Shown: positions 6,500-31,188, numbered from the stretch's first letter. The stretch is 64,000 nucleotides of DNA from Dictyostelium discoideum (GCA_000004695.1 CM000154.2:3040001-3104000); one strand, 5' to 3'. The notes: a model not told the origin generated them from the sequence alone. Made by a program: numbers and translations.

Positions 6500-8726
6500 T
6501 TATTGTCTTCTTTTTTTATTACTTATATAATTATCGTCACTATCACTAGTGTTAATTTCTTTTCTTTTTGGTTTTGATCTCGATTTTGAAGAGGATGATG
6601 ATGATTTTGAGGAGGATTTTGAAGAAGATGATGATTTTGAGGAAGAAGATTTCAAAGTGGATTTAGAGGATGACGATTTTGAAGAAGAAGAAGATTTTAA
6701 TATTGGTTTCCTTCTTGAATTAAATGATTTATCATGCGATGATGATGATGATTTTGATGATTTTGATGCATTTTTAGCTTTTAATAATGGTTTCTTTTTA
6801 GATTTCTTTTTGTTATCAGAGTCTGAACTATCGCTATATCCATAATTATCACTATCACTATCGCTATTACTATCACTATCGCTATCACTATCACTATCGT
6901 TATCGCTATCACTACTTTCACTACTATCTATATTAATTTTCTTTTTACTATTTCCATTACTACTTCCATTATTTGTTATTACTTTTTTAGGTATTGGAAT
7001 TGATGCTAAAGGTATTTTACCTGTAATAGATAATGCTAAATTTGTATTTGTTATTGGTGAAGTTATAGATGTTGTTGTTGTTGTTGTTGTTGTTGTATTA
7101 TTTGTTGTTGGTGTAGTTGTAGTAGGTGGGGTTGATACTGTTGTTGGTATTGTAGCTTTTGATTCAGAAGTAATTGGTGTCGTAGGATTTGATTGAGTTT
7201 TTGACGATGATGATTTGGATTTCTTTTTTACAGATTCTGGTGATTTTTCATCAACCAAACCATCTGATCCCTTTTGTTCTTTTAATGATTTTATTACATT
7301 TGAAATATTATCAGTTATTGCTTTACAAACATCATTACTTTCATCATTTATTAAATTTTGAATTTCTTTTTGAATATATACAGCAACTCTATTAATAATA
7401 ATAATAATATATAATCAACATATAGATATTATGTATAAATATTAATATTTTATGATATTGTTAGAATTTTCTAATTTTAAAATTATATATACATACGATT
7501 CAGTATTTTTTTTTAATTCACTCATTACATGTCTTTTTTGTAAACTTTTTGTTACAGCATATGCTTCTAATGTTTCATTATTCTTTAAAACTTCTTGAGT
7601 TTTCTTTAAAATACTATCACCAATACCTTTACAATTGATTTGAGTTGTAATAATATCTCTAATCTTATCAAATGTACCATTATTCTTTAATATATCTACA
7701 ATTTGTATCGATTTTTGTTGATAAAAACTAAATTCTGCTTGACTCATTGATTCTATAATAGATTTAGATTCAATTTCATCTTTAATTTTAACTATATTAT
7801 TATTATTGTTATTATTATTGTTATTATTATTATTATTATTACTATTACTACTACTATTATTACTATTATTACTATTATTATCTTCTTTCTTTACTTGAAT
7901 TGTTGTTGTTGTTGATGATGAAACTATTGATGGTGTTAATGTTGTTGGTGTTAATGTTGTTGGTGTTAGTGTTGGTATTGATGTGGTAGTTGTTGTTGTT
8001 GGTGTTGATGTTTGTTGAGGTATTTTTAATGGTGTTTCTACAGGGGTAATACTATCCCATTTTGAAGTTCTTGCTTCTAGTTTTACAGATGGTTGTATGT
8101 TATTACTATTATTGTTATTATCTACAGTTGTGGTGGTTGATGTTGTTGTTGGAGTTGTTGAAAATTTAGATTGAATAGGTGTAATTAGCGTATTTGGGAT
8201 TTGGGTTGGTGGTGAATCTTTATTATATCTATCATTAAATCTTTCAGAATAAGTTTCCCTACCTCTATCAATGAATCTATGATCATTATATTCACCACCA
8301 CCGCCACCACCTCTAAAACCACCACCTCCGATACCTCTATCACCACCACCACCATATCCACCCCTATGTGTGATACCTCTACCACCTCTAAAACCACCTC
8401 TACCTCTTTCATAGACACCTCTATCATATGCACCCATATCTCTATCATAATCTCTTTCATAGTAACCACTTATACCTCTATCGTAAGCTTCCCTTCTATC
8501 ACTCCAACTATTTTGATGATGATCTCTACCACCACCCCTCCAACTCGTTCCATAGTAACCACCGCCACCTCTATCATATCCAACACCACCCATTGTGGTA
8601 TTTCTATCATGATATCCACTATTATGATATCCACCAGAGGGTATGGTTGTATTTATTGGACTGTTTATTGTTGTATTAGTTTGAGTGTGAGTGTGAGGAA
8701 GAGGTATTGTTGGTATTTGAGTGTAA

Positions 8727-15771: not shown

Positions 15772-16586
15772 ATGGAAAAAGGGTTATCATCTGATTTAAT
15801 CATTGCATTTGTTGCAATTGTTTTACATGTTGTCAATTATAATGTTACAGCACAATTCGAATATAAAACTAGATATTTTACAAAGGTATTTATAATTTAT
15901 AATTCAAAATTTATAATCATTATTATTAATTATTAATTTATTGTTATATTAATTAATTAATTATTTCAATAATAATAATAATTATAATAATTTGAAACTA
16001 GTTAATTGGTAGAAATGCAATTTACTATTATGCAGTTTTTTTAATTATTTCAGCATTAATTAGAGATCATTTTATCAATGTTGCAGTATTATCAGATAAA
16101 GATTCAATCATATTATTCCCAACTGAAATTGCAAATATGATTGGTGATAGTTGTTTTATTTTTGGTATTTTATTAAATATTTGGACTTTAAAAGCATTGG
16201 GAATTAAAGGAATGTATAATGGTGATAGTTTTGGTCACATTATGGACTCACCAGTAACTGGTGGACCATATCAATTTTTCAGTGATCCACAATATGTTGG
16301 TACTACTATCGCTGCTTTAGGTGTTGCTATTAGAAATCAAAGTATTTATGGATTCTGTAAGTTTTATTTTTTTAATAATAATAATAATAATAATTTTGAA
16401 GAAATTTTATTAACTGTAATAATTTTTTTAATTTTTTTTTTTTTTTTTTTAGTATGTACAATTTTGGTAGGTGTTGTTTTTTACATTTCAGCTACATTTG
16501 TTGAGACACCACATTTGAAAAATATTTATTCAAATAGATCTTATTCAAAAATCAACTTTAAAAATTTAAAATCATTAAAAAATTAA
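15772..16586 (+). CDS. phospholipid (phosphatidylethanolamine) N-methyltransferase, PEMT/PLMT family (3 exons: 15772..15885, 16002..16356, 16453..16586)
   Basis: GDSFGHIM..PVTGGPYQFFSDPQYVGTTIAALGVAI..VETPHLKNIYS matches the PEMT motifs [37 protein letters not shown]. Introns are GTATTT..ctAG (116 nt) and GTAAGT..tttAG (96 nt, in frame so the ORF track reads through it). The product is about 200 aa, typical for PEMT. Confidence 0.65.
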
Positions 16587-16781: not shown

Positions 16782-17175
16782 CTAAGGACGAGATTGATGT
16801 TGATGGTTTTTCATTTTATGATAATTATTTTCAATTGTATTGTTATTTTTATTATTCAAATTAATTCTTAAAATACGAATACTATTAATAATGGAATGAT
16901 TTAATTTTAAAGCATTTCGAATATCATTTATTAAATTTTCATTAAAAATTATGGTTTGTTTATTGTATTCTTTTAATTGTTTGGAATTATCTATATGAAC
17001 TTGGTTATTTAAAATTATTAATGATTCTTGATATTTTTTAATTATTTCAATTATACCTGTATCTACTTTAAAATCTTCACCCCCATCATAACATTCTTGA
17101 TTTTTATTGTTTATAATAAAATGATTTAACTTTTCAATGAATTTTTTATCATTATCCTCATATTTACTTTTATTT

Positions 17176-17270
<95 letters not shown>

Positions 17271-17843
17271 AAAATGTGATATTGCTTCATCAATTAATGA
17301 AGTAGTATGATTTTTTAATGTATCTGTTGTTTTAAGAGTATCGGTATTATTTTCTTGGTCATTAAAAATTGATAAGAGTTTTTCATTATCATGATTGATT
17401 GATGAATCCAAAGTTTGATTAATTAGTGTATTTGAATCGAATATGGTTTCTAGTTGTTTTTCAATATCATTTTCAATACATTGAACTGAAATATGAATTT
17501 TTTTCATTTCAGATTTTAACAAACTATTGTTTTTTTCATATTGAATTTTGATTTCATTGAATTTATCATTTGATTCTTGCAATATTTTTTCATTATTTTC
17601 AATCCTTTCAATTACTTTTGGAAATACATCATCTTTAAAACTATTAACAAATGAAAGAATATTTTTTATTGACTCTATTGGATCAGTTTTATGAGCATGG
17701 TGTTCTCCTTTACTTGATATACATATAATACAACATGGAATATATTTGCATTGTAAACATAATACTTTTATATTTTTACTTGGATGTAAAGCACACTTTT
17801 TTTTGTTATTAACTGGATTTTTATTATCAATGTTTGATGCCAT
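16782..17843 (-). CDS. B-box zinc finger protein (FNIP-less paralog of the B-box/FNIP family)
   Basis: The N-terminus [45 protein letters not shown] is almost identical to the B-box of gene 60059 ([44 protein letters not shown]). Coiled-coil and poly-N follow. It ends with a stop and no FNIP exon downstream. Confidence 0.6.
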
Positions 17844-20134: not shown

Positions 20135-20169
<35 letters not shown>

Positions 20170-21330
20170 AGTAGTTGGTGTTATATGAGCAGTATGGTAT
20201 GAAGTGTTCCGGGATGTTTATGGTCATGAGTTTCGAGTTCCAGTTGTGGCTGAATTTTTCGAGTCTTCTTTTTATTGATGCGGTCCGATTGATTGACTCT
20301 CGGTTATCAGTGCATCTTAGTTCTTGACGTAGTTGTTTTTCTACTATCTTTCTTGTTCTATCCCATTCGGCATCTCTCGCTTTTTTGATTTTATGAATTA
20401 TTTGGTTCTCTGTTATTATTGTAGTGTTATCGTTGAATTTTATTTGATTTCTTCTGTACCATATCGATTCCATAATGGCTCCTATCAGATTTGATGAGAA
20501 TGGTGTGAGTAGTTTTCCGAGAACTTTTTCGCTCCATGGACCGTGGTAAGTGTTGTTGGAGTCTTTACAGACCTTTTGATAGATTGAGTCGATATTCTGT
20601 TTTATTGATTTGCATTCGAAGAAGATGTGCATAGACGATTCTTCTTCTTTACATGAGTGGCAATTCTCCCCATGGTGTTTTGGAAGTGCCTTGATTAGAT
20701 ATCTCCATGCTAAGTCTCTTCCTTTGATAGTTGTGATTGATCTGGCTTCTCTAAATGGTAGAATTGGGTGATTAATGTTCTTTTGAATCAGTTTTTGACC
20801 TGTTGTTGGCTGGTGTTTGTTCCATCCCTTGTATTTGATATCCATCATGTTTCTATAGATTACTTTTAATTTTTGTTTGTTTTCGTATTTGGGTTTGACT
20901 TGGTTTAGTTTGAGAGTTATTCGCTCTCTTGGGTGGTGCAACAACTTCCAGGCTTTCCAGCATTTGATGTGAATCCTTGATAGTGAGTTTTCTTTTTCCG
21001 ACTTCCAGACTTCCATATGTGGAGGGCAGTTCTGGTCGTCTTTTTCTCTGAGGTATTGTTCGTATATCCATGCTTTCTGGGCATTGGATCTGGTTGCCAT
21101 ATTCCAGAGTTCCAGGCCTCCAATTTCATAGTCTCTTCTGCTCCTTTCTTTTGAGATAGCCCACCTGTCCCCTTTGAATAACATGTTGGCATTAACGTTC
21201 TCCAGTTTCTTTATGTCATTTATTTCGTTGATGTATAGTTGGAATGTTAGTTGGGACAGGAGGTATGATTTGAGGATTGTGATTCTACCTTTTAGCGTTG
21301 ATGACACGCTCGAGTAGCATTGGTGAAGTT
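20040..21330 (-). mobile_element. 5'-truncated non-LTR (LINE-like, TRE-type) retrotransposon fragment: ORF2 C-terminal region, with a 3' poly(A) and (AAT)n tail
   Basis: The 380-aa ORF (20165..21307) has near-balanced base composition, unlike the host. It contains a Cys/His-rich motif (HHGENCHSCKEEESSMHIFFECKS) typical of the LINE ORF2 C-terminus. The stop is immediately followed by an A-run on the minus strand (T-run 20141..20166) and (AAT)n. It lies 5' of, and head-to-head with, tRNA-Val. Confidence 0.6.
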
Positions 21331-21364: not shown

Positions 21365-21438
21365 GGTCAGATGGTGTAGTCGGTTATCACGGTTGCTTTA
21401 CACGCAACAGGTCTCGAGTTCGATCCTCGGTCAGATCA
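21365..21438 (+). tRNA. tRNA-Val (anticodon UAC)
   Basis: It folds as a cloverleaf: acceptor GGTCAGA/TCAGATC (one A-A mismatch at 5-68), D arm GTGT-AGTCGGTTA-TCAC, anticodon arm GTTGC-TTTACAC-GCAAC (anticodon TAC), variable loop AGGTC, T arm TCGAG-TTCGATC-CTCGG, discriminator A. The D arm (GTGT/TCAC) and the ACAC after the anticodon match eukaryotic tRNA-Val. Confidence 0.75.
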
Positions 21439-22302: not shown

Positions 22303-23884
22303 TTATCTTTTTTCTTTATTTAATTTTGAAATTGCCCAATAACCACTTACAAAAAAGAAACAAATCCACAATATAATAATACCAATACCTTTTTGAAGTG
22401 TCCAATCTTCAAGATTATAAAATTTTAAAACATCATTACCATTTGGGAATTGACAAAAATCATTTGGACATTCTAATGGATAATCTTTAAATTGAGCGAC
22501 CATTACAGTTGCATAACCATAGTATAAAGGATTTAACCAATGGATCCAACCAAAACTTTTTGGTAATTGTTTCACAGGAACTAAATGGCCCATAAATAGT
22601 AAAAAAGTAATTGAAATTGTTGTACCATAAATAAAAGTTAAATCAGATTTACCAGTTATATTAGAGATTGCAATAATATATAAATCTGATAATAAATTAA
22701 TTAAATATAAAATGAAATAAGTAATGAAAAAGCTTGAAAAATTCCATCTTAAATGATTAATTGTATAAACTAGTAATGATACGATTAAGGAAACCAAAAA
22801 TTGAATAAATGCTTCAGTTGTAATTGTTGATAGATAAAATGGTAGAGAATGATAAATTTTTGAAGCTCTTTCTGAATTGAAAACTTCACGATTTGATAAG
22901 AACAATGTAATACATGTAAATGGTATTAAGTTTAAAACTGCAATTAAAAAGAATAAAATACCAGAAATTTTTAAAACATCCTCTTGACTTGGTGATAATG
23001 TACCAAAACAGGCGGAAAATAATAAACCAATCATAAAACCACCAGATAAACGTGTAATATATTGAGTTGAATTTCTAAAGAAATCTTTGAAATTTCTATT
23101 CAATAAAATTTTATATTGATATAGTAATGAGCAACTTTTATTTGGTTCAATTGAACGATTAAAAGGTTGAATTCTTGAAACTGCCAACATATTATCTCTC
23201 CAATTGGTTTCCCATGATTCACAAATTTCTTCATAATGATCACATTCGGAAATTTCATGACATGTATCCAATATGAAATCTGCAGGATTTGTATAGTTTG
23301 GACATTGATATTGATTTGGTAATGATGAAAGATAATTTAAAACATCATTACCACAATAAATCATTCTACCTTTTAACATAATCATAATTTTATTAAATAA
23401 ATGATAAATTTCTGGACGTGGTTGATGAATTGAACAAATTACAGTTACACCTTTAATTACGGTTAAATTCATTAAAACTTTCATAACTTTTAAAGCATTT
23501 AATGAATCTAAACCACTTGTAGGTTCATCTAAAAATAATAAAGATGGATTTGTAACTAATGCACAACCAATTGAAACTCTTTTCTTTTCACCACCTGATA
23601 AACCTTTTACAATCATACCACCAGGTAAAATACCACCAATTTTTGATTTTGATTTTTTTGTTAAACCAATATCTTTTATTACTTGTTCAACAACTTTCCA
23701 TTTATCTTGATCACTTAAACCTGGTAATCTTAAATCTGCATGAAATTTTAAAGTTTCTTCAACTGTTGAAGTTTGTAATAATATTTCATCTTGAGTTACA
23801 TAAGAACAATACTAATTTAAATTTTAAAATAAAAAAAATTTAAAAAAATAAAAAATAATTAATATAATTAAATAAATAAATAAA

Positions 23885-23920
<36 letters not shown>

Positions 23921-24459
23921 TTTTTATATGCATCTCCAATTTCTTTACCATTAACTAAAATTTTACCACTAATTGTACCAGTTGATTTTCTATTTGCAAG
24001 AATATCTAATAATGTTGATTTACCACTACCAGAAGGACCAAATAAACCAACCATTTCACTTTTTTCAATTATACCACTAACATTTGAAAGAATTGTAATT
24101 TCCTTTTCAATTTTACCATTTGTTGTTGATCTTGTTTGTTGTGGATTCATTGATTGATCAATTTTTGAAATATTTAAACTATTTGTTGGTAAAATCGATG
24201 ATCTTGATTGTTGTGGGGTTTGTAAACCTGATGCTGAAGATTCAACATCATATGATGAATTTGAGTTAGAAGAGTTAGATCTTTCCATTTCCAATTTTTT
24301 TTTTCTTTTTTTTTCATCTTTTATTTGTTTTTTATAATTTCTATTTTCAGTTTTATAAGAAATATTTTCAAAAATAACTTGAACACCAATATTATTATCT
24401 GAATTTAAATTTGTTAAATTATTATTATTATATGGAAAATTTGGGGTTGATATTTCTGA

Positions 24460-24490
<31 letters not shown>

Positions 24491-24506
24491 AAATTATAAT
24501 TATCAA

Positions 24507-24563
<57 letters not shown>

Positions 24564-24858
24564 CAATATTATTATAATTGTTACTATTATTTTTATTATT
24601 GTTATTATCAATATTATTGTTATTATCAATATTATTATCAATATTATTAATATTATTAATATTATTATTAGCAATATTATTATTATTATTATCAATATTA
24701 TTATTATTATTTCCAATACTATTATTATCTATATTATTATTATCAATATTATTATCAATATTATTTTTATTATGAATACTATTAGTATCAATATTAGTAT
24801 TATCAATATTATTATTGATGTTATTACAATTTGTATTATTTATTGAAATAACTTCCAT
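22303..24858 (-). CDS. ABC transporter G-family (ABCG/White-type) half transporter, NBD-TMD (2 exons: 24858..23920, 23811..22303)
   Basis: Walker [10 protein letters not shown], signature [12 protein letters not shown], Walker [13 protein letters not shown] and an H-loop are followed by 6 TM helices. The intron GTAAAA..aattAG (minus-strand intron 23919..23812, 108 nt) sits after ..[10 protein letters not shown]. The N-terminus is a 190-aa poly-Asn region. Exon 2 aligns with the paralog at 26245 right at the junction ([15 protein letters not shown] ~ FCSYVTQEEVFLETS). Confidence 0.85.
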
Positions 24859-24863
24859 GCTTT

Positions 24864-24934
<71 letters not shown>

Positions 24935-25131
24935 TATTTACAAAATGGAAATAAATAATTTAAAAAAATTAAATTTACAATATAAAATTTTTTATATAGA
25001 TAATATTTAAATTATGATTGAAATTATTTAATAATTTAATATAAAAAAAAATTATTATTAAAATTGATTCAATAAATAGAAAAATTATTTGTAATTTAAA
25101 AAATCTATTTTTTTTTTTTTTTATTTTAATA

Positions 25132-25171
<40 letters not shown>

Positions 25172-25173
25172 AA

Positions 25174-25222
<49 letters not shown>

Positions 25223-26003
25223 AAAACAATCAAATAAAATATTTAATTATTTTCATGATACAAAATAACCCTCATGGATACACCAATTCACAATAGTAAA
25301 AGAAAAAAACAAAACAGCTACAAAAGCAACAACAACAGCAATACCACCAGAATAAAAAAAAAAAAAAAAAAAAAAAAAAACCCAATAATGTAATGTATCA
25401 AAAAAAAAAAAATTACTACAAACAAATAAACAAAAACTACCACCCTAAATAGTATACCTATATCTAAAATTATTTTTAATTTAAAAAAAATTTAAAAATA
25501 GAAAAAAAATTAAAAAAAAAAAAAAAATTTGTATTCCAAAATGGTGGGTCTATATTAAATATTTACACAATGTTAAAATACTGTTTGAAAAAATGGCATG
25601 TGTTAAAAGGGGTTTGTGTCAGTCTGAAATCCAAAAGGCGTTTTTATAAAAAATAATTTTACTGATCCTTAAATGGGAACAAAATTTTGATATGAATAAA
25701 AAATAAATAAATTAATAAATAAAATAATTATTTAAATAAATTCAATTTTTTTATAATGTAAATATTTGAATCTGTCCTATTATAAAAAAGTAGTGCTAGT
25801 AAATGGAAAAATATTTGATTTATTTTTTTTTTTTTTTTTTTTTTTTTTTTATTATTATTTTTATTATTATTATTTTTGGGGGTTATACACTACTTTTTTT
25901 TACTTCTTTTTTTATTAATACATTTAACAGTGTGAGGTTATACGAACTAACTTGTTGATATATTATTTATTTTTATTATTATTATTATAAAATTAAAATT
26001 AAC

Positions 26004-26043
<40 letters not shown>

Positions 26044-26244
26044 TACACTAATAAAAAAAAAAAAAAAAAAAATTATTATTTAATTTAATAAAAAAAAAAA
26101 AAAAACTGATATGAATTATAAATATTTTTAAAACTATTGAAAATAACAATAAAAATTTAAAAACTTTATTCTTTTAATGAGTTTTTTTTAATTTTTTTTT
26201 GGTTTTTTTTTTTTTTTTTTTTTTTTTTATTATTTATTTTAAAA

Positions 26245-28428
26245 TTATCTTTTTTCTTTATTAAATTTATAAAGTCCAATATAAGCTAAAATATAAAAAA
26301 ATGCTATCCAAATTGTTAAAATACCAATTGATTTATTATATTCCCAATTTTTTAAACCTAAAAATTCAATTAAATTATTACCATTCGAATAAAGACATGG
26401 TATTGGTGGTTGAGGACATTGAAATTCAAAATCTCTATATTGAATGATTACTATTGATGAGAAACCATAAAATAGATAATCAATATGATGAATCCAACCA
26501 AAACTATCAGGTAATGAATTAATTGGTACTAAAAATCCGGAGAATAATACCAATACTACTGATACACCTGTACAATATGAAAATGTTAAATCAACAGTTC
26601 CAGCAATATTTGACATTGCTATTACCATAAAAACTGATGCTAAAAATACCATATAAAATGAAATCAATGATAATATATATGCTTCAAATGACCATCGCAA
26701 ATGAACAATACAATAAATTATTGTTGTAATAATTAATACAACAAAGAATGATGATACAATTTCAATTAACATTGATCCTATAAAATAAGGAAATGGATGA
26801 TAGATTTTTGATGCCCTTTCAGAATTAAATAAAGTTCTAATTGAAACAAATGTTGAAATACTTGAATATGGTAATAAATTTAATGAAGTTATAATAAAGA
26901 AAAATAAAGCTGATACTGATTGAGCCTCATTTTGATCCAACCCATCATAACCAACTGTCCCAAAACATGCAGAGAACAATAATCCAATTAATATTGCAAT
27001 TACAATCTTTGAGAAAAACACTACCCTATTCCTCACAAAACTTTGATAACTTCTTTTTTGACAAACCCAATATTGATAAATGAAACCAACTCTCTTTGGT
27101 ATATCAATATTAATTGGATCATTGGAAATGGTTGGCTGTATTTCATGTTTCCAATATTTTTCCCATGTATCAACAGTTGTTGAATATTGAGATGGATTAT
27201 TAACAATTTCATCACATACATCCAATATGAAATCAGCAGGATTCATTTGTGGTGGACATTTATAATTTGAATCTATACTTGAGAGATATTCTAAAATATT
27301 TGAACCACTATAAACCATTCTCCCTTTTAATACAACCATAATATTACTAAATAAATAAAAAATTTCAGGACGTGGTTGATGTACTGAGCATACAACTGTT
27401 ACACCTTTCATTTTAGTTAACTCTAATAAAACTTTCATTACTTTTAATGAATTTAATGAATCTAAACCACTTGTAGGTTCATCTAAAAATAATAAAGATG
27501 GATTTGTAACTAATGCACATCCAATTGAAACTCTTTTCTTTTCACCACCTGATAATCCTTTTACTATCATACCACCCGGTAGAATACCACCAATTTTTGA
27601 ATTTAATTTTCTATCTAATCCAACATCTTTTAAAACTTGTTTAATTCTTATATCTTTTTCAGTATCTGTCATATCTGGTAACCTTAAATCTGCATGAAAT
27701 TTTAAAGTTTCATAAACTGTTGATGTTTCTAAAAACACCTCTTCTTGAGTTACATATGAACAAAACATTTTATAAGCTTCACCAATTTCTTTACCATTTA
27801 CTAATATTTTACCAGTGATTGTACCTGTTGATTTCCTATTTGCAAGTATATCCAATAATGTAGATTTACCACTACCTGATGGACCCATTAATGCAACCAT
27901 TTCACCTTTTTCAACAATACCACTAACATTTGATAAAATTGTTAATTCCTTCTCAATAATTCTATCAATTGGTAATTTATTAACTTGTGATTCAATATCT
28001 TCAATATCAATTTTACCAGATTCTAATTTTTTAATAATTTTTTTTTGTTCATTATATTTTTTATTTAAAACTTTATAACAAATATTTTCAAATGTAACTT
28101 GAACTCCAACATTATTATTAATATTAATAATTTCATTATCATTTGATCTACCATTAGTAATTTCATTATTAAAAGTACCACTTGAATCACTATTAATACT
28201 ATTCCTTCTATTTTCAATGTTTTTAATTTTTGTTTGAATTCCACTTTCAATATCTTTATTATTATTATTACTATTACTATTTAAATTTGAATTATCTGAA
28301 ATTAATTTTTCACTTAAATTGATTTGTGGTGTTTGTGGTGATAAAGAGAGTGATGATAATGAATATTCATTATTTGGTTGCTTTGGATGTAATGTATTTA
28401 TTACTTCGTTTTTAAATTGTTGTTGTTC

Positions 28429-28517
<89 letters not shown>

Positions 28518-28641
28518 GATTTGATAAAATTTGTTCCTCATTTATATTATTTCTTGAATTTTTATCTTCAAAATTTTCATCATTTTTTTCATCAGACTTA
28601 TCATCAATAATTTCAAAATTATTATTTCCTATATCTTCCAT
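26245..28641 (-). CDS. ABC transporter G-family half transporter, intronless tandem paralog
   Basis: The 798-aa product has the same NBD motifs and TMD as the 22303 gene (about 75% aa identity in the core). It is continuous through the position where the neighbour has an intron. The N-terminus has a Q36 run encoded by pure (CAA)n (plus strand (TTG)n, 28417..28517). Confidence 0.85.
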
Positions 28642-29413: not shown

Positions 29414-30959
29414 TTACATTAATGGAACTTTTGAACGTTTCTTTTTATTTTCTTCCTCCTCTTCTTCTTTTTCTTTTTTTTTATCATTATTATGATTATC
29501 AACAACTTTTTTTTCTTTTTTATTTACCTTTTCTTCATATTGTTTATTACTACTATCTTTGAAAGGATCTTCATTTTCTTGATCATCTTCATCACCATCA
29601 TCATCTTCTTTGTCTATTTCACCATCATTTTGTTGTTGTTGTTGTTGTAATTTTACATTTTCATCATAACCATCATCTTCATCATCATTATTATCATCAT
29701 TCTGTAAATTATTTGTTTTAACAAAAGTTTGTTTACTTGGTGAAGTTGGATCTGGTACCATTGTTAATTCATAATCTTCTTGAAGTTGTGTTGAAGTTTC
29801 TAAATTACTCTCGATTGAATTTGATGATTTATCAATTGAACTTGGTAATGGAGGTGGTGAAATAATTGATGACAATGATTTTGTTGGTATTTGATCTTGG
29901 ATTGGATTTTGAGGTTTTAATTCTTTAATTTGTTGTTTAGATTGTTTTTTACTTTTTTTAACTTTTTTATTATTTTCATTTTTATTATTATTTATTGTTG
30001 CTGAAGAAGATGATGCTGATGATGATGATGCTTCATTATTCTCATTATTATTATTATTATTAATATTATTATCATTTAAAGTTGTAGTTGTAGTTGTAGT
30101 ATTATTTTTATTATTTTTATTTTTATTTATTGAAGATGATTCTAATTTTAATAAAGTTTTTTTAATTTTCTTTAATAATACTGGTGAATCTGGTTTATTT
30201 TTGAGTGAATCTTGATAAGATTCTAATGCTTCTTGATAACGACCTAAAAAGTAAAGTGAGTTACCTTTTGCATAACGTGGTAAATAACTATGATGACTAT
30301 CTCTATTTTCAATATCGATTGCTTTTTGAGCATCTTCCAATGCCTCTTGATAACGTTTCAATTTATTGAAACACATTGAACGATTTGAAAAGAGTATATT
30401 ATTTCGTTGATCGATTTCAATGGCCTCTGTGTATAATTCAATTGCTTCTTGATATTTTTTAGCATAATATGAATCATTGGCTAATCTAAATAGATTCTTT
30501 GCTTCCGTTGTTGAGAAATCAATTAAATCATCAATCATTTGTAACATTTCATCAAATTCTTGACATTGTTGAATCACAATTGCACTCTCAATACATGTTC
30601 TACTCTCTTTCAATTGATTTGCACCAAGATATGCTGATCCCATTCTAGCATATGCTTTCGATAGAATTGAATCAATCTCTTCAATTTCTTTTTTTCTTTT
30701 TTTCTTTTCTTTTATTTCTTCATCCCCATCACCATCTTCCTCTTCCTCTCCATCCTCCCCCTCTTCTTCCTCTTCTTTCTTAGATAATCCTTTTGATTTC
30801 TCTTTTCTAATTTTATTACCTTTTTCTAATGTAATTTTGCATTCTTTAATTGCATTTGAAAATAATCCTGATAAATTATAAACAGCTATTTTTTAAAATA
30901 AAAAAAAAAAAAAAAAAAGGAATGGGTTTTTATAGTTTTTTTTTAGAGGAAATGTCTCA

Positions 30960-31022
<63 letters not shown>

Positions 31023-31188
31023 ATAAATATTTACCTGCTCTTGACAAATGGTATTCAATATTCTCTGGATCTAATTCCAATGCTTCTGTAAATAAATTTA
31101 ATGCAGATGTATAATTTTTATTCCATAACTCAATATTTGCTTTTTCTTTAAGTACTATTGCTTGTTTAGTTTTAATTATTGAAGTCAT
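29414..31188 (-). CDS. TPR-repeat protein (2 exons: 31188..31035, 30885..29414)
   Basis: Exon 1 is MTSIIKTKQAIVLKEKANIELWNKNYTSALNLFTEALELDPENIEYHLSRA, then g|GTAAAT. The acceptor tagCTG.. at 30886 gives a 149-nt intron. Exon 2 reads ..AVYNLSGLFSNAIKECKITLEKGNK..acidic linker..KAYARMGSAYLGANQLKESRTCIE.., then 3-4 more TPRs (YYAKKYQEAIELYTEAIEIDQRN.., YAKGNSLYFLGRYQEALESYQDSL) and an acidic/poly-N tail. The ATG at 31221 is an alternative start. Confidence 0.6.

What the first reader, a model, noticed from the sequence alone, without database searches (positions are those of the whole stretch)
22303..28641. Tandem ABCG half-transporter paralogs differing by intron presence and by the identity of their N-terminal homopolymer
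The two same-strand ABCG genes are clearly duplicates. One has a 108-nt intron (23812..23919) exactly between ..[10 protein letters not shown] and YCSYVTQDE... The other is continuous at the homologous position (GKEIGEAYKMFCSYVTQEE), so this records a recent intron gain or loss.

Their N-terminal extensions are also non-homologous low-complexity inventions: a 190-residue poly-Asn in one, and Q36 from pure (CAA)34 (28417..28517) in the other.
Basis: seen in the sequence. Interest (0 to 1): 0.5.

Follow-up and report, generated by a model that had tools for sequence, protein, structure and literature searches.

The report
Old ABCG gene pair; one lost intron
Two neighbouring Dictyostelium discoideum ABCG half-transporter genes (abcG7 and its upstream neighbour) are old duplicates; the upstream copy lost a family-wide intron cleanly, and both carry fast-changing Asn/Gln repeats, all of which is ordinary for this genome.

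Summary
The core observation holds. Gene A (28641..26245, minus strand, one ORF, 798 aa) and gene B (24858..22303, 815 aa) are tandem ABCG half-transporters. B has a 108-nt GT..AG intron at exactly 23812..23919. B is abcG7, because published knockout primers match it uniquely.

The repeat details are wrong. The Gln tract is Q30-E-Q3, encoded by (CAA)30 GAA (CAA)3. The "190-residue poly-Asn" is a 157-residue extension that is 59% Asn, with a longest run of N18.

The interpretation needs correcting:
- **Age of the duplication:** it is not recent. The proteins are 50% identical, and syntenic orthologues of both genes exist in D. purpureum.
- **Direction of the intron change:** the phase-0 intron at ..YKK|xCSYVTQ is present in 12 related genes. 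These include both D. purpureum A-clade genes, the abcG12 clade and two P. violaceum genes. It is missing only from gene A of D. discoideum, D. citrinum and D. firmibasis. This is one precise intron loss, most likely through a cDNA copy.

Two further results:
- **Gene conversion:** short tracts homogenise the signature/Walker B segment of A and B within each species (P <= 5e-5).
- **Repeat turnover:** the homopolymers differ even between orthologues. D. citrinum A has about 95 Asn where D. discoideum A has Q30.

This is a new instance of well-known phenomena.

The parts
26245..28641 (-). Gene A: intronless ABCG half-transporter, 798 aa (NBD then TMD). Its official name was not verified. From memory of protein lengths it is possibly abcG4.
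   Evidence: It is a single ORF. Pfam finds ABC_tran at residues 236-391 and ABC2_membrane at 522-735. Walker A, Q-loop, signature, Walker B, D-loop and H-loop are all canonical. The same 798-aa product is called in L011. dN/dS is 0.13-0.17 against the D. citrinum and D. firmibasis orthologues.
28417..28518 (-). Gln tract of gene A: (CAA)30 GAA (CAA)3, encoding Q30-E-Q3 (residues 42-75).
   Evidence: TRF: period 3, 34 copies, 97% match. In D. citrinum A, the same position holds N5-D-N16-D-N58-I-N16, all AAT codons. D. firmibasis A has no tract there.
28327..28383 (-). Conserved island inside the otherwise low-complexity N-terminal extension of A (K87-P105, KQPNNEYSLSSLSLSPQTP).
   Evidence: It aligns with KQPNNDYSFSSLSLSPQIP in D. 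citrinum A and HPNNDYSLSSLSLSPQTP in D. firmibasis A. It is not seen in D. purpureum.
27763..27768 (-). Site of the lost intron in gene A: codons M292|F293, uninterrupted.
   Evidence: The protein alignment has no gap at the junction. The D. citrinum and D. firmibasis A orthologues are also continuous here.
27448..27606 (-). Gene-conversion tract in A (residues 346-398; signature, Walker B, D-loop).
   Evidence: It is 94% identical in nucleotides to the B tract, against 61% identity in the C-terminal 1113 nt (A residues 420-798). A tree of this tract groups sequences by species.
24859..26244 (.). A-B intergenic spacer, 1386 nt, almost entirely A/T runs.
   Evidence: Apart from the intron A-run, every difference from the second assembly lies in this spacer: 7 substitutions and 4 length changes in A/T runs.
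23920..24858 (-). Gene B (abcG7) exon 1, codons 1-313.
   Evidence: The published abcG7 primers match gene B uniquely; all three sites lie in exon 2.
24388..24858 (-). Asn-rich N-terminal extension of B: 157 residues, 92 Asn (88 of them AAT codons), NNID-like imperfect units, longest run N18.
   Evidence: TRF reports an array at 24460..24816 at 76% match. The extension is 91 aa in D. citrinum, 90 aa in D. firmibasis and only 20 aa in D. purpureum.
23812..23919 (-). Phase-0 spliceosomal intron of abcG7: 108 nt, GTAAAA..AATTAG, 1.9% G+C.
   Evidence: Retention would give an in-frame stop. The intron is 102 nt in L011, 85 nt in D. citrinum, 94 nt in D. firmibasis and 80 nt in D. purpureum, so it is mostly not a multiple of 3.
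22303..23811 (-). Gene B (abcG7) exon 2, codons 314-815 plus the stop codon.
   Evidence: Pfam finds ABC_tran at residues 257-412 and ABC2_membrane at 544-754. dN/dS is 0.06-0.07.
23494..23652 (-). Gene-conversion tract in B (residues 367-419), partner of A 27448..27606.

Best explanation
The window comes from Dictyostelium discoideum. The two genes are old tandem duplicates of an ABCG (White-type) half-transporter. The downstream gene is abcG7.

1. **Duplication.** It happened before D. discoideum and D. purpureum diverged. Both copies have stayed functional under purifying selection, with complete ATP-binding motifs.
2. **Intron history.** The ancestral gene carried a phase-0 intron between the codons for ..YKK and xCSYVTQ... 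abcG7 keeps it. Gene A lost it exactly, with no codon added or removed. The loss falls on the branch leading to D. discoideum, D. citrinum and D. firmibasis.
3. **Mechanism of loss (inferred).** The most likely route is recombination of the gene with a reverse-transcribed copy of its own spliced mRNA. This is the mechanism favoured for the hundreds of precise intron losses catalogued in this species.
4. **Repeats.** The Asn-rich and Gln tracts in the N-terminal extensions are products of slippage in AAT and CAA repeats. They expand, contract and are replaced within a few per cent of sequence divergence.
5. **Gene conversion.** Short-tract conversion between the two neighbours keeps the signature/Walker B segment nearly identical within each species. 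It has not carried the intron across or removed it.
For: **Identity of the genes**
- Pfam domains are in NBD-then-TMD order. The best solved relatives are PDR5/CDR1, ABCG2, AtABCG25 and ABCG1.
- Primers for abcG7 from Miranda et al. 2013 (PMC3743828, supplementary files 2 and 3) match uniquely at 23719..23735, 22564..22582 and 23180..23201. A tabulated value of 2556 equals the ATG-to-stop span of gene B.

**Age of the duplication**
- The proteins are 50% identical.
- D. purpureum has a syntenic pair, 153305 and 153304, next to the same hydrolase gene.
- In a neighbour-joining (NJ) tree, the A clade has 97% bootstrap support, the B clade 100% and A+B together 100%.

**Direction of the intron change**
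- Exact spliced mapping of annotated proteins finds the phase-0 ..YKK|xCSYVTQ intron in 11 further genes. They are D. citrinum B, D. firmibasis B, D. purpureum 153304, 153305, 27204, 154969 and 98693, D. discoideum abcG12 and its 627-aa neighbour, and P. violaceum 481 and 482.
- The intron is absent only from the A genes of D. discoideum, D. citrinum and D. firmibasis within that set.
- The junction in A has no indel.
- The segment is a genuine intron. It has an in-frame stop, 2% G+C, and orthologous lengths of 80, 85, 94 and 102/108 nt.

**Both genes are constrained**
- dN/dS is 0.13-0.17 for A and 0.06-0.07 for B. All motifs are intact.

**Gene conversion**
- Of 430 informative quartet sites between D. 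discoideum and D. citrinum, 400 follow orthology.
- Eleven consecutive species-pattern sites fall at A residues 348-389, with a permutation P <= 5e-5. The other two species pairs within the D. discoideum group give the same P.
- The tree of this tract groups A with B within each species (D. purpureum 98%, D. citrinum 93%, D. discoideum 70%). The rest of the gene groups by paralogue at 100%.

**Repeat turnover:**

**Base rate:** Ma et al. 2015 (PMC4683709) report 441 precise and 2 imprecise intron losses in D. discoideum, and their evidence favours the reverse-transcription model.
Against: - No transcript data could be examined, so splicing of the 108-nt segment rests on sequence features and comparative evidence.
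- The cDNA-mediated route is inferred from precision and base rates. Nothing here discriminates it from an exact genomic deletion. The flanking G+C content shows no signal, and a single-intron gene offers no adjacent-intron or 3'-bias test.
- Deeper relatives lack this intron: T. lacteum, H. album, C. fasciculata and the sister subfamily. The intron is therefore ancestral only to the group-4 plus P. violaceum part of the family.
- The tree is neighbour-joining on corrected p-distances, not maximum likelihood.
- Part of the species-wise grouping for D. purpureum in the conversion tract could reflect its different codon usage.
Confidence: 0.85

Rival explanations
1. Intron gain: the ancestor of A and B had no intron at this site, and abcG7 acquired the 108-nt intron after the duplication.
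For: Gene A, and the family members examined in T. lacteum, H. album and C. fasciculata, have no intron at this site. The intron is AT-rich simple sequence and resembles intergenic DNA.
Against: The same position and phase are occupied in 12 genes spread over the B clade, the A clade (D. purpureum 153305 and 27204), the abcG12 clade and P. violaceum. On the tree, gain in B alone would need at least four further independent insertions at exactly the same codon boundary. The alternative is a single loss.
Confidence: 0.03
2. The 108-nt segment is not an intron but retained coding sequence, or abcG7 is a pseudogene broken at this point.
For: The length is a multiple of 3 in this window (108 nt) and in L011 (102 nt). 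No transcript data were available.
Against: - Read-through meets TAA after 31 codons.
- The segment is 1.9% G+C and has GT..AG ends.
- The orthologous segments are 85, 94 and 80 nt, and would shift the frame.
- Exon 2 is under strong purifying selection, with dN/dS 0.06-0.07.
- Disrupting abcG7 gives a developmental phenotype in Miranda et al. 2013.
Confidence: 0.02
3. Gene A lost the intron by an exact genomic deletion (microhomology or end-joining repair), not through a cDNA intermediate.
For: The event removed one short intron 876 nt into a 2397-nt CDS, which is not a 3'-proximal position. There is no G+C elevation in the flanks. The intron ends share an AG|G..AG|T dinucleotide.
Against: The excision is exact to the nucleotide. 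In the genome-wide survey, precise losses outnumber imprecise ones 441 to 2 in D. discoideum. Short direct repeats were no more frequent at lost introns than at conserved ones.
Confidence: 0.25
4. Gene A is a processed retrocopy of abcG7 (or of another family member) that happened to land next to it.
For: Gene A has no introns at all. An insertion that may be a retroelement fragment lies next to a tRNA gene about 1 kb downstream of abcG7.
Against: The TPR gene, A and B lie in the same order in D. citrinum and D. firmibasis, and hydrolase, A and B lie in the same order in D. purpureum. The D. purpureum gene at the A position still has the intron. A is only 50% identical to B and forms its own clade.
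Confidence: 0.02
5. The near-identity of A and B in the signature/Walker B segment reflects extreme purifying selection plus codon bias, not gene conversion.
For: The segment is the most conserved part of any ABC ATPase. D. discoideum codon usage is strongly biased: 77% of identical residues use the same codon gene-wide.
Against: Selection and bias cannot explain derived variants shared only by the two paralogues of one species. Codon 384 is TTA/TTA in D. discoideum, GTG/GTG in D. citrinum, GTT/GTA in D. firmibasis and CTT/CTA in D. purpureum. There are 11 such sites in a row with no orthology-pattern site between them, P <= 5e-5, and the tract tree groups by species.
Confidence: 0.1

Closest known systems
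D. discoideum abcG7 and the abcG half-transporter subfamily (ABCG/White family; solved relatives are human ABCG2, ABCG1 and ABCG5/G8, Arabidopsis ABCG25, and yeast PDR5/CDR1)
   Same: The domain order is NBD then TMD. Walker A, Q-loop, signature, Walker B, D-loop and H-loop are canonical, and there is a full-length ABC2_membrane match. Gene B is abcG7 itself.
   Different: There are long Asn/Gln-rich N-terminal extensions and a low-complexity insert early in the NBD, both absent from the solved relatives. The substrate is unknown. Unlike ABCG5/G8, neither partner has a degenerate ATP site.
Precise intron losses catalogued in D. discoideum (Ma, Che, Porceddu and Niu 2015, PMC4683709: 441 cases, reverse-transcription model)
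   Same: The excision is exact with no flanking indel. The intron is retained in D. purpureum, and it is short.
   Different: The event lies in one member of a tandem paralogue pair. The intron is absent from the P. pallidum and D. fasciculatum relatives. No entry at CDS position 875-877 appears in their Table S1, so this case was probably outside their 1:1-orthologue design.
Interlocus (ectopic) gene conversion between tandem paralogues
   Same: It shows a mosaic pattern. A short tract groups by species while the rest of the gene groups by paralogue.
   Different: The tract is very short, about 130-160 nt. It coincides with the segment that forms the ATP sandwich, and it recurs in each of the four species examined. 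An intron presence/absence difference persists about 160 nt upstream of it.
Coding AAT/CAA trinucleotide repeats (poly-Asn, poly-Gln) that are a hallmark of the D. discoideum proteome (established knowledge from the genome paper, not re-tested here)
   Same: The tracts use a single codon type, lie in non-conserved N-terminal extensions, and change length quickly between species.
   Different: At one orthologous position the expanded repeat is CAA (Gln) in D. discoideum and AAT (Asn) in D. citrinum. D. firmibasis has neither.

Membership tests
ABCG (White-type) half-transporter | Reverse domain order: one nucleotide-binding domain N-terminal to one ABC-2 type membrane domain. | tested here: met
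   Gene A has ABC_tran at 236-391 followed by ABC2_membrane at 522-735. Gene B has ABC_tran at 257-412 followed by ABC2_membrane at 544-754. All E-values are <= 6e-27.
ABCG (White-type) half-transporter | Complete ATPase motifs (Walker A, Q-loop, LSGGE signature, Walker B with catalytic Glu, D-loop, H-loop). | tested here: met
   Both genes have [11 protein letters not shown][ED], LSGGE, LLFLDE, SGLD and S[VI]HQP.
ABCG (White-type) half-transporter | Closest relatives by sequence are ABCG proteins rather than ABCA or ABCB proteins. | tested here: met
   PDR5/CDR1, ABCG2, AtABCG25, ABCG1 and ABCG5/8 score E 1e-70 to 1e-41. ABCA and ABCB proteins score E >= 4e-29.
ABCG (White-type) half-transporter | Functions as a homo- or heterodimer that exports a substrate. 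| not testable with these tools
   The only functional evidence found is the abcG7-null delay in forming tipped aggregates, reported by Miranda et al. 2013.
U2-type spliceosomal intron (23812..23919) | GT..AG boundaries, and removal restores the conserved reading frame. | tested here: met
   The ends are GTAAAA..AATTAG. The spliced product aligns without a gap to gene A and to all orthologues.
U2-type spliceosomal intron (23812..23919) | The segment is non-coding: stops if retained, length not constrained to multiples of 3, composition like non-coding DNA. | tested here: met
   There is an in-frame TAA and the G+C content is 1.9%. Orthologous lengths are 102/108, 85, 94 and 80 nt.
U2-type spliceosomal intron (23812..23919) | Observed removal from the mRNA. 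| not testable with these tools
   No transcript data are available. Independent gene calls in two assemblies use this intron.
Precise intron loss (reverse-transcription model) | The intron is present at the homologous site in the orthologue of an outgroup species and in paralogues, and absent in the focal lineage. | tested here: met
   Twelve genes have the intron. The A genes of D. discoideum, D. citrinum and D. firmibasis lack it.
Precise intron loss (reverse-transcription model) | Exact excision with no gain or loss of flanking coding nucleotides. | tested here: met
   There is no gap at codons 292|293 in the codon alignment.
Precise intron loss (reverse-transcription model) | Signatures of a cDNA intermediate (simultaneous loss of adjacent introns, 3' bias, raised flanking G+C). 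| tested here: inconclusive
   Only one intron needed to be lost. The second intron of D. purpureum 153305 is not shared with 27204 or with the B clade. Flanking G+C is not raised.
Interlocus gene conversion between tandem paralogues | Within a tract, paralogues of one species are closer to each other than to their orthologues, while the rest of the gene follows orthology. | tested here: met
Interlocus gene conversion between tandem paralogues | Significant clustering of discordant sites. | tested here: met
   The longest uninterrupted runs of species-pattern sites are 11, 6 and 8 in the three species pairs within the D. discoideum group. Each has a permutation P <= 5e-5.

The most novel reading that the evidence does not exclude
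The short conversion tract is not a random by-product of tandem arrangement. It covers exactly the signature, Walker B and D-loop segment that completes the partner's ATP site, and it recurs in all four species. Under this reading, it is maintained because A and abcG7 work as a heterodimer whose two composite ATP sites must stay matched. The intron presence/absence heterology about 160 nt upstream would then act as a barrier that limits how far conversion can spread towards the 5' end.
Probability: 0.12. Interest if true: 0.45.

Novelty: new member of a known kind. Interest (0 to 1): 0.2.

Why it matters
It matters little beyond bookkeeping.
- **What is settled:** the open "gain or loss" question is resolved as a precise loss and dated to after the D. 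purpureum split and before the D. discoideum / D. citrinum / D. firmibasis radiation. The repeat descriptions are corrected.
- **A caution for tree-building:** two annotated ABCG genes exchange a short stretch of their ATPase domain by gene conversion. This can mislead family trees built from NBD sequence alone.
- **A small example of repeat turnover:** the Gln tract of one species is replaced by an Asn tract at the same place in its sister species. This is relevant to work on the aggregation-prone Q/N-rich proteome of this organism.

None of this changes what is known about ABCG transporters, intron dynamics or coding repeats in Dictyostelium.

Tried and rejected
- **Exact look-ups of both proteins:** these failed in the 15-billion-sequence collection. 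The homology search returned no D. discoideum copy of A or B and no A orthologue from the D. discoideum group. These proteins seem to be left out of that collection, perhaps because of their homopolymers. Names therefore could not be read from it. abcG7 was identified through published primers instead.
- **Name of gene A:** I could not verify it. Anjard and Loomis 2002 is not held, and searches for abcG4 in Dictyostelium found nothing.
- **(CAA)n length polymorphism between strains:** the only other D. discoideum assembly reachable (L011) has coding sequences identical to the window. It differs only in A/T homopolymer lengths and a few intergenic substitutions. It is probably the same laboratory lineage, so nothing is learned about natural variation.
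- **Flanking G+C as a footprint of cDNA-mediated conversion:** no difference between A and B.
- **Ma et al. 2015 Table S1:** I searched by D. purpureum gene numbers and by CDS position and found nothing.
- **Enumerating the splice model of the upstream hydrolase gene** to use it as a look-up key: no model found.
- **Rfam scan of the window:** nothing in or between the two genes.
- **Retrocopy origin of A and intron gain in B:** both considered and rejected (see rival explanations).

Full report
**What is there**

The window is 20.7% G+C, and its closest relatives all come from Dictyostelium.

Two genes lie head-to-tail on the minus strand, 1386 nt apart.
- **Gene A** (28641..26245) is one uninterrupted ORF of 798 codons.
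- **Gene B** (24858..22303) has two exons, 24858..23920 and 23811..22303. The intron between them is 108 nt, runs GT..AG, is 1.9% G+C and is in phase 0. The spliced product is 815 aa. Read-through would stop at a TAA after 31 codons.
- Both products have an ABC_tran domain followed by a full-length ABC2_membrane domain. All ATPase motifs are canonical. Their nearest solved relatives are ABCG proteins.
- An independent annotation of another D. discoideum assembly (L011) calls the same 798-aa and 815-aa products. Its coding DNA is identical to the window, and its intron is 102 nt because the A-run is A24 instead of A30.

Gene B is abcG7. The knockout and diagnostic primers published by Miranda et al. 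2013 (PMC3743828, supplementary files 2 and 3) match uniquely inside it. A tabulated value of 2556 equals its ATG-to-stop span. The same paper reports that abcG7-null cells are delayed in forming tipped aggregates. I could not verify the name of gene A. From memory of protein lengths it may be abcG4, but that is a lead, not a result.

The intron coordinates and the flanking peptides are exactly right. The repeat descriptions are not.
- The Gln tract is (CAA)30 (28518..28429), GAA, then (CAA)3 (to 28417). That is Q30-E-Q3, not Q36 from a pure (CAA)34.
- The Asn-rich region of B is a 157-residue extension with 92 Asn (59%). It is built from imperfect NNID-like units, and its longest pure run is N18. 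It is not a 190-residue poly-Asn.

**The duplication is old**

A and B are 50% identical over 665 aligned residues.

D. citrinum, D. firmibasis and D. purpureum each have the same tandem pair in the same neighbourhood. The hydrolase and TPR genes lie upstream, and the PEMT gene lies downstream in D. citrinum and D. firmibasis.

I built a neighbour-joining tree from 26 family members, using 549 ungapped columns and 200 bootstraps.
- The A genes of the D. discoideum group cluster with D. purpureum 153305 and 27204 (97%).
- The B genes cluster with D. purpureum 153304 (100%).
- A+B together have 100% support, and the abcG12 clade is their sister.

Both genes are under purifying selection. dN/dS is 0.13-0.17 for A and 0.06-0.07 for B, so A evolves about two and a half times faster at the protein level.

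**Intron gain or loss**

I mapped annotated proteins back onto genomic DNA with an exact spliced mapper.

| Status of the phase-0 ..YKK\|xCSYVTQ intron | Genes |
|---|---|
| Present (58-113 nt) | abcG7 in the window; D. citrinum B; D. firmibasis B; D. purpureum 153304, 153305, 27204, 154969, 98693; D. discoideum abcG12 and its 627-aa neighbour; P. violaceum 481 and 482 |
| Absent, within the same clades | Gene A of D. discoideum, D. citrinum and D. firmibasis |
| Absent, more distant | T. lacteum (an intronless gene); H. album; C. fasciculata; a D. firmibasis member of the sister subfamily |

On the tree, the simplest history is this. The intron was present in the ancestor of A and B. It was lost once, on the branch leading to gene A of the D. 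discoideum group, after D. purpureum diverged.

The excision is exact: the codon alignment has no gap at M292|F293.

**How the intron was lost**

This step is inferred, not shown.

Ma et al. 2015 (PMC4683709) found 441 precise and 2 imprecise intron losses in D. discoideum. They argued for gene conversion by reverse-transcribed mRNA. The exactness here fits that route.

I could not find a discriminating signature. Only one intron had to go, and flanking G+C is not raised. I put roughly two to one on the cDNA route over an exact genomic deletion.

This event does not appear in their Table S1 at the expected CDS position. The likely reason is that the family is multi-copy and the P. pallidum and D. 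fasciculatum relatives lack the intron.

Nucleotide identity between A and B is about 0.5-0.65 in the membrane domain. It rises to 0.94-0.97 around the signature and Walker B motifs.

In that stretch the two paralogues of one species share variants that differ between species. Codon 384 is an example:

| Species | A / B codon |
|---|---|
| D. discoideum | TTA / TTA |
| D. citrinum | GTG / GTG |
| D. firmibasis | GTT / GTA |
| D. purpureum | CTT / CTA |

The statistics agree.
- Of 430 informative quartet sites between D. discoideum and D. citrinum, 400 follow orthology.
- Eleven species-pattern sites lie consecutively at A residues 348-389, with a permutation P <= 5e-5. The other two species pairs within the D. 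discoideum group give the same P.
- A tree of A residues 346-398 groups A with B within species (D. purpureum 98%, D. citrinum 93%, D. discoideum 70%). Residues 420-798 group by paralogue at 100%.
- D. citrinum has a second tract at A residues about 260-286, with 3 differences in 105 nt. It ends a few codons before the intron site.
- Immediately after the intron site (residues 293-345) the genes again follow orthology.

So conversion operates on both sides of the intron site but has neither copied nor erased the intron.

**The low-complexity extensions**

The two extensions show no detectable similarity to each other. They also change quickly between orthologues.

| Gene A in | Tract |
|---|---|
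| D. discoideum | Q30-E-Q3 |
| D. citrinum | N5-D-N16-D-N58-I-N16 (all AAT codons) at the same place, followed by a Q-rich remnant |
| D. firmibasis | Nothing at that place, but N24-S-N10 next to the NBD |

About 15 residues downstream of the tract, an island (KQPNN[DE]YS[LF]SSLSLSPQ) is conserved in all three species. The A extension is therefore not pure filler.

The B extension is 157 aa in D. discoideum, 91 aa in D. citrinum, 90 aa in D. firmibasis and 20 aa in D. purpureum. These are slippage-driven expansions of AAT and CAA repeats, which are a well-known feature of this genome. I cite that from established knowledge and did not re-test it.

**Verdict**

The core observation is real but its repeat numbers are wrong, so it counts as partly confirmed. 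The pair is an old tandem duplication with one precise intron loss, ongoing short-tract gene conversion and rapidly evolving coding repeats. Each element is a new instance of a known kind in annotated genes, so interest is low.

Noticed in passing
window 21365..21438 (+): A tRNA-Val(UAC) gene. ARAGORN calls it, and Rfam RF00005 scores 54 bits in a local scan. The whole-window Rfam gathering scan missed it, so that scan's speed filters can lose tRNAs in this AT-rich DNA.
   Followed up: partly
window 20165..21307 (-): A 380-aa ORF with no Pfam match starts 58 nt from the tRNA-Val gene. The spacing between abcG7 and the PEMT gene is 5.7 kb here, against 1.07 kb in D. citrinum. This suggests an insertion beside the tRNA gene, possibly a fragment of a tRNA-targeted retroelement. 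That idea is from memory and was not tested.
   Followed up: partly
window 24866..24932: A 67-nt pure A run (minus strand) lies immediately upstream of the abcG7 start codon. It is 40 nt shorter in the second D. discoideum assembly, L011. Apart from the intron A-run, all other differences between the two assemblies in this 7-kb region lie in the A-B spacer.
   Followed up: yes
L002 7903..7993 (D. purpureum DICPUDRAFT_153305): The annotated second intron removes the H-loop (..CSIHQPR..). An alternative GT..AG intron at 7933..7993 keeps VCSIHQPRVQ|IFNLF and gives a 738-aa product. The public model is probably wrong.
   Followed up: partly
window 29414..31188 (-): A TPR-repeat gene lies upstream of gene A. 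It has two exons and a 149-nt intron at 30886..31034, giving a 541-aa product with its own N/T/S/Q runs. The same 541-aa product is called in L011.
   Followed up: yes
window 16782..17843 (-) and 15772..16586 (+): One ORF has a B-box zinc finger and contains an N31 run. The other gene encodes a PEMT-family methyltransferase.
   Followed up: no
L007 6001..11246 and L008 6001..11245: The sister clade also consists of tandem pairs (abcG12 with a 627-aa neighbour; D. purpureum 154969 with 98693). In that clade, all copies group by species over the whole gene. This points either to independent duplications or to whole-gene concerted evolution.
   Followed up: no
genes A and B, and the D. citrinum and D. 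firmibasis A orthologues: These proteins are absent from the clustered protein collection, and no Pfam hit is on record for the A calls or for D. discoideum abcG7, although gene calls for them exist. Long homopolymers may cause them to be filtered out, which would bias any search that relies on that collection.
   Followed up: partly
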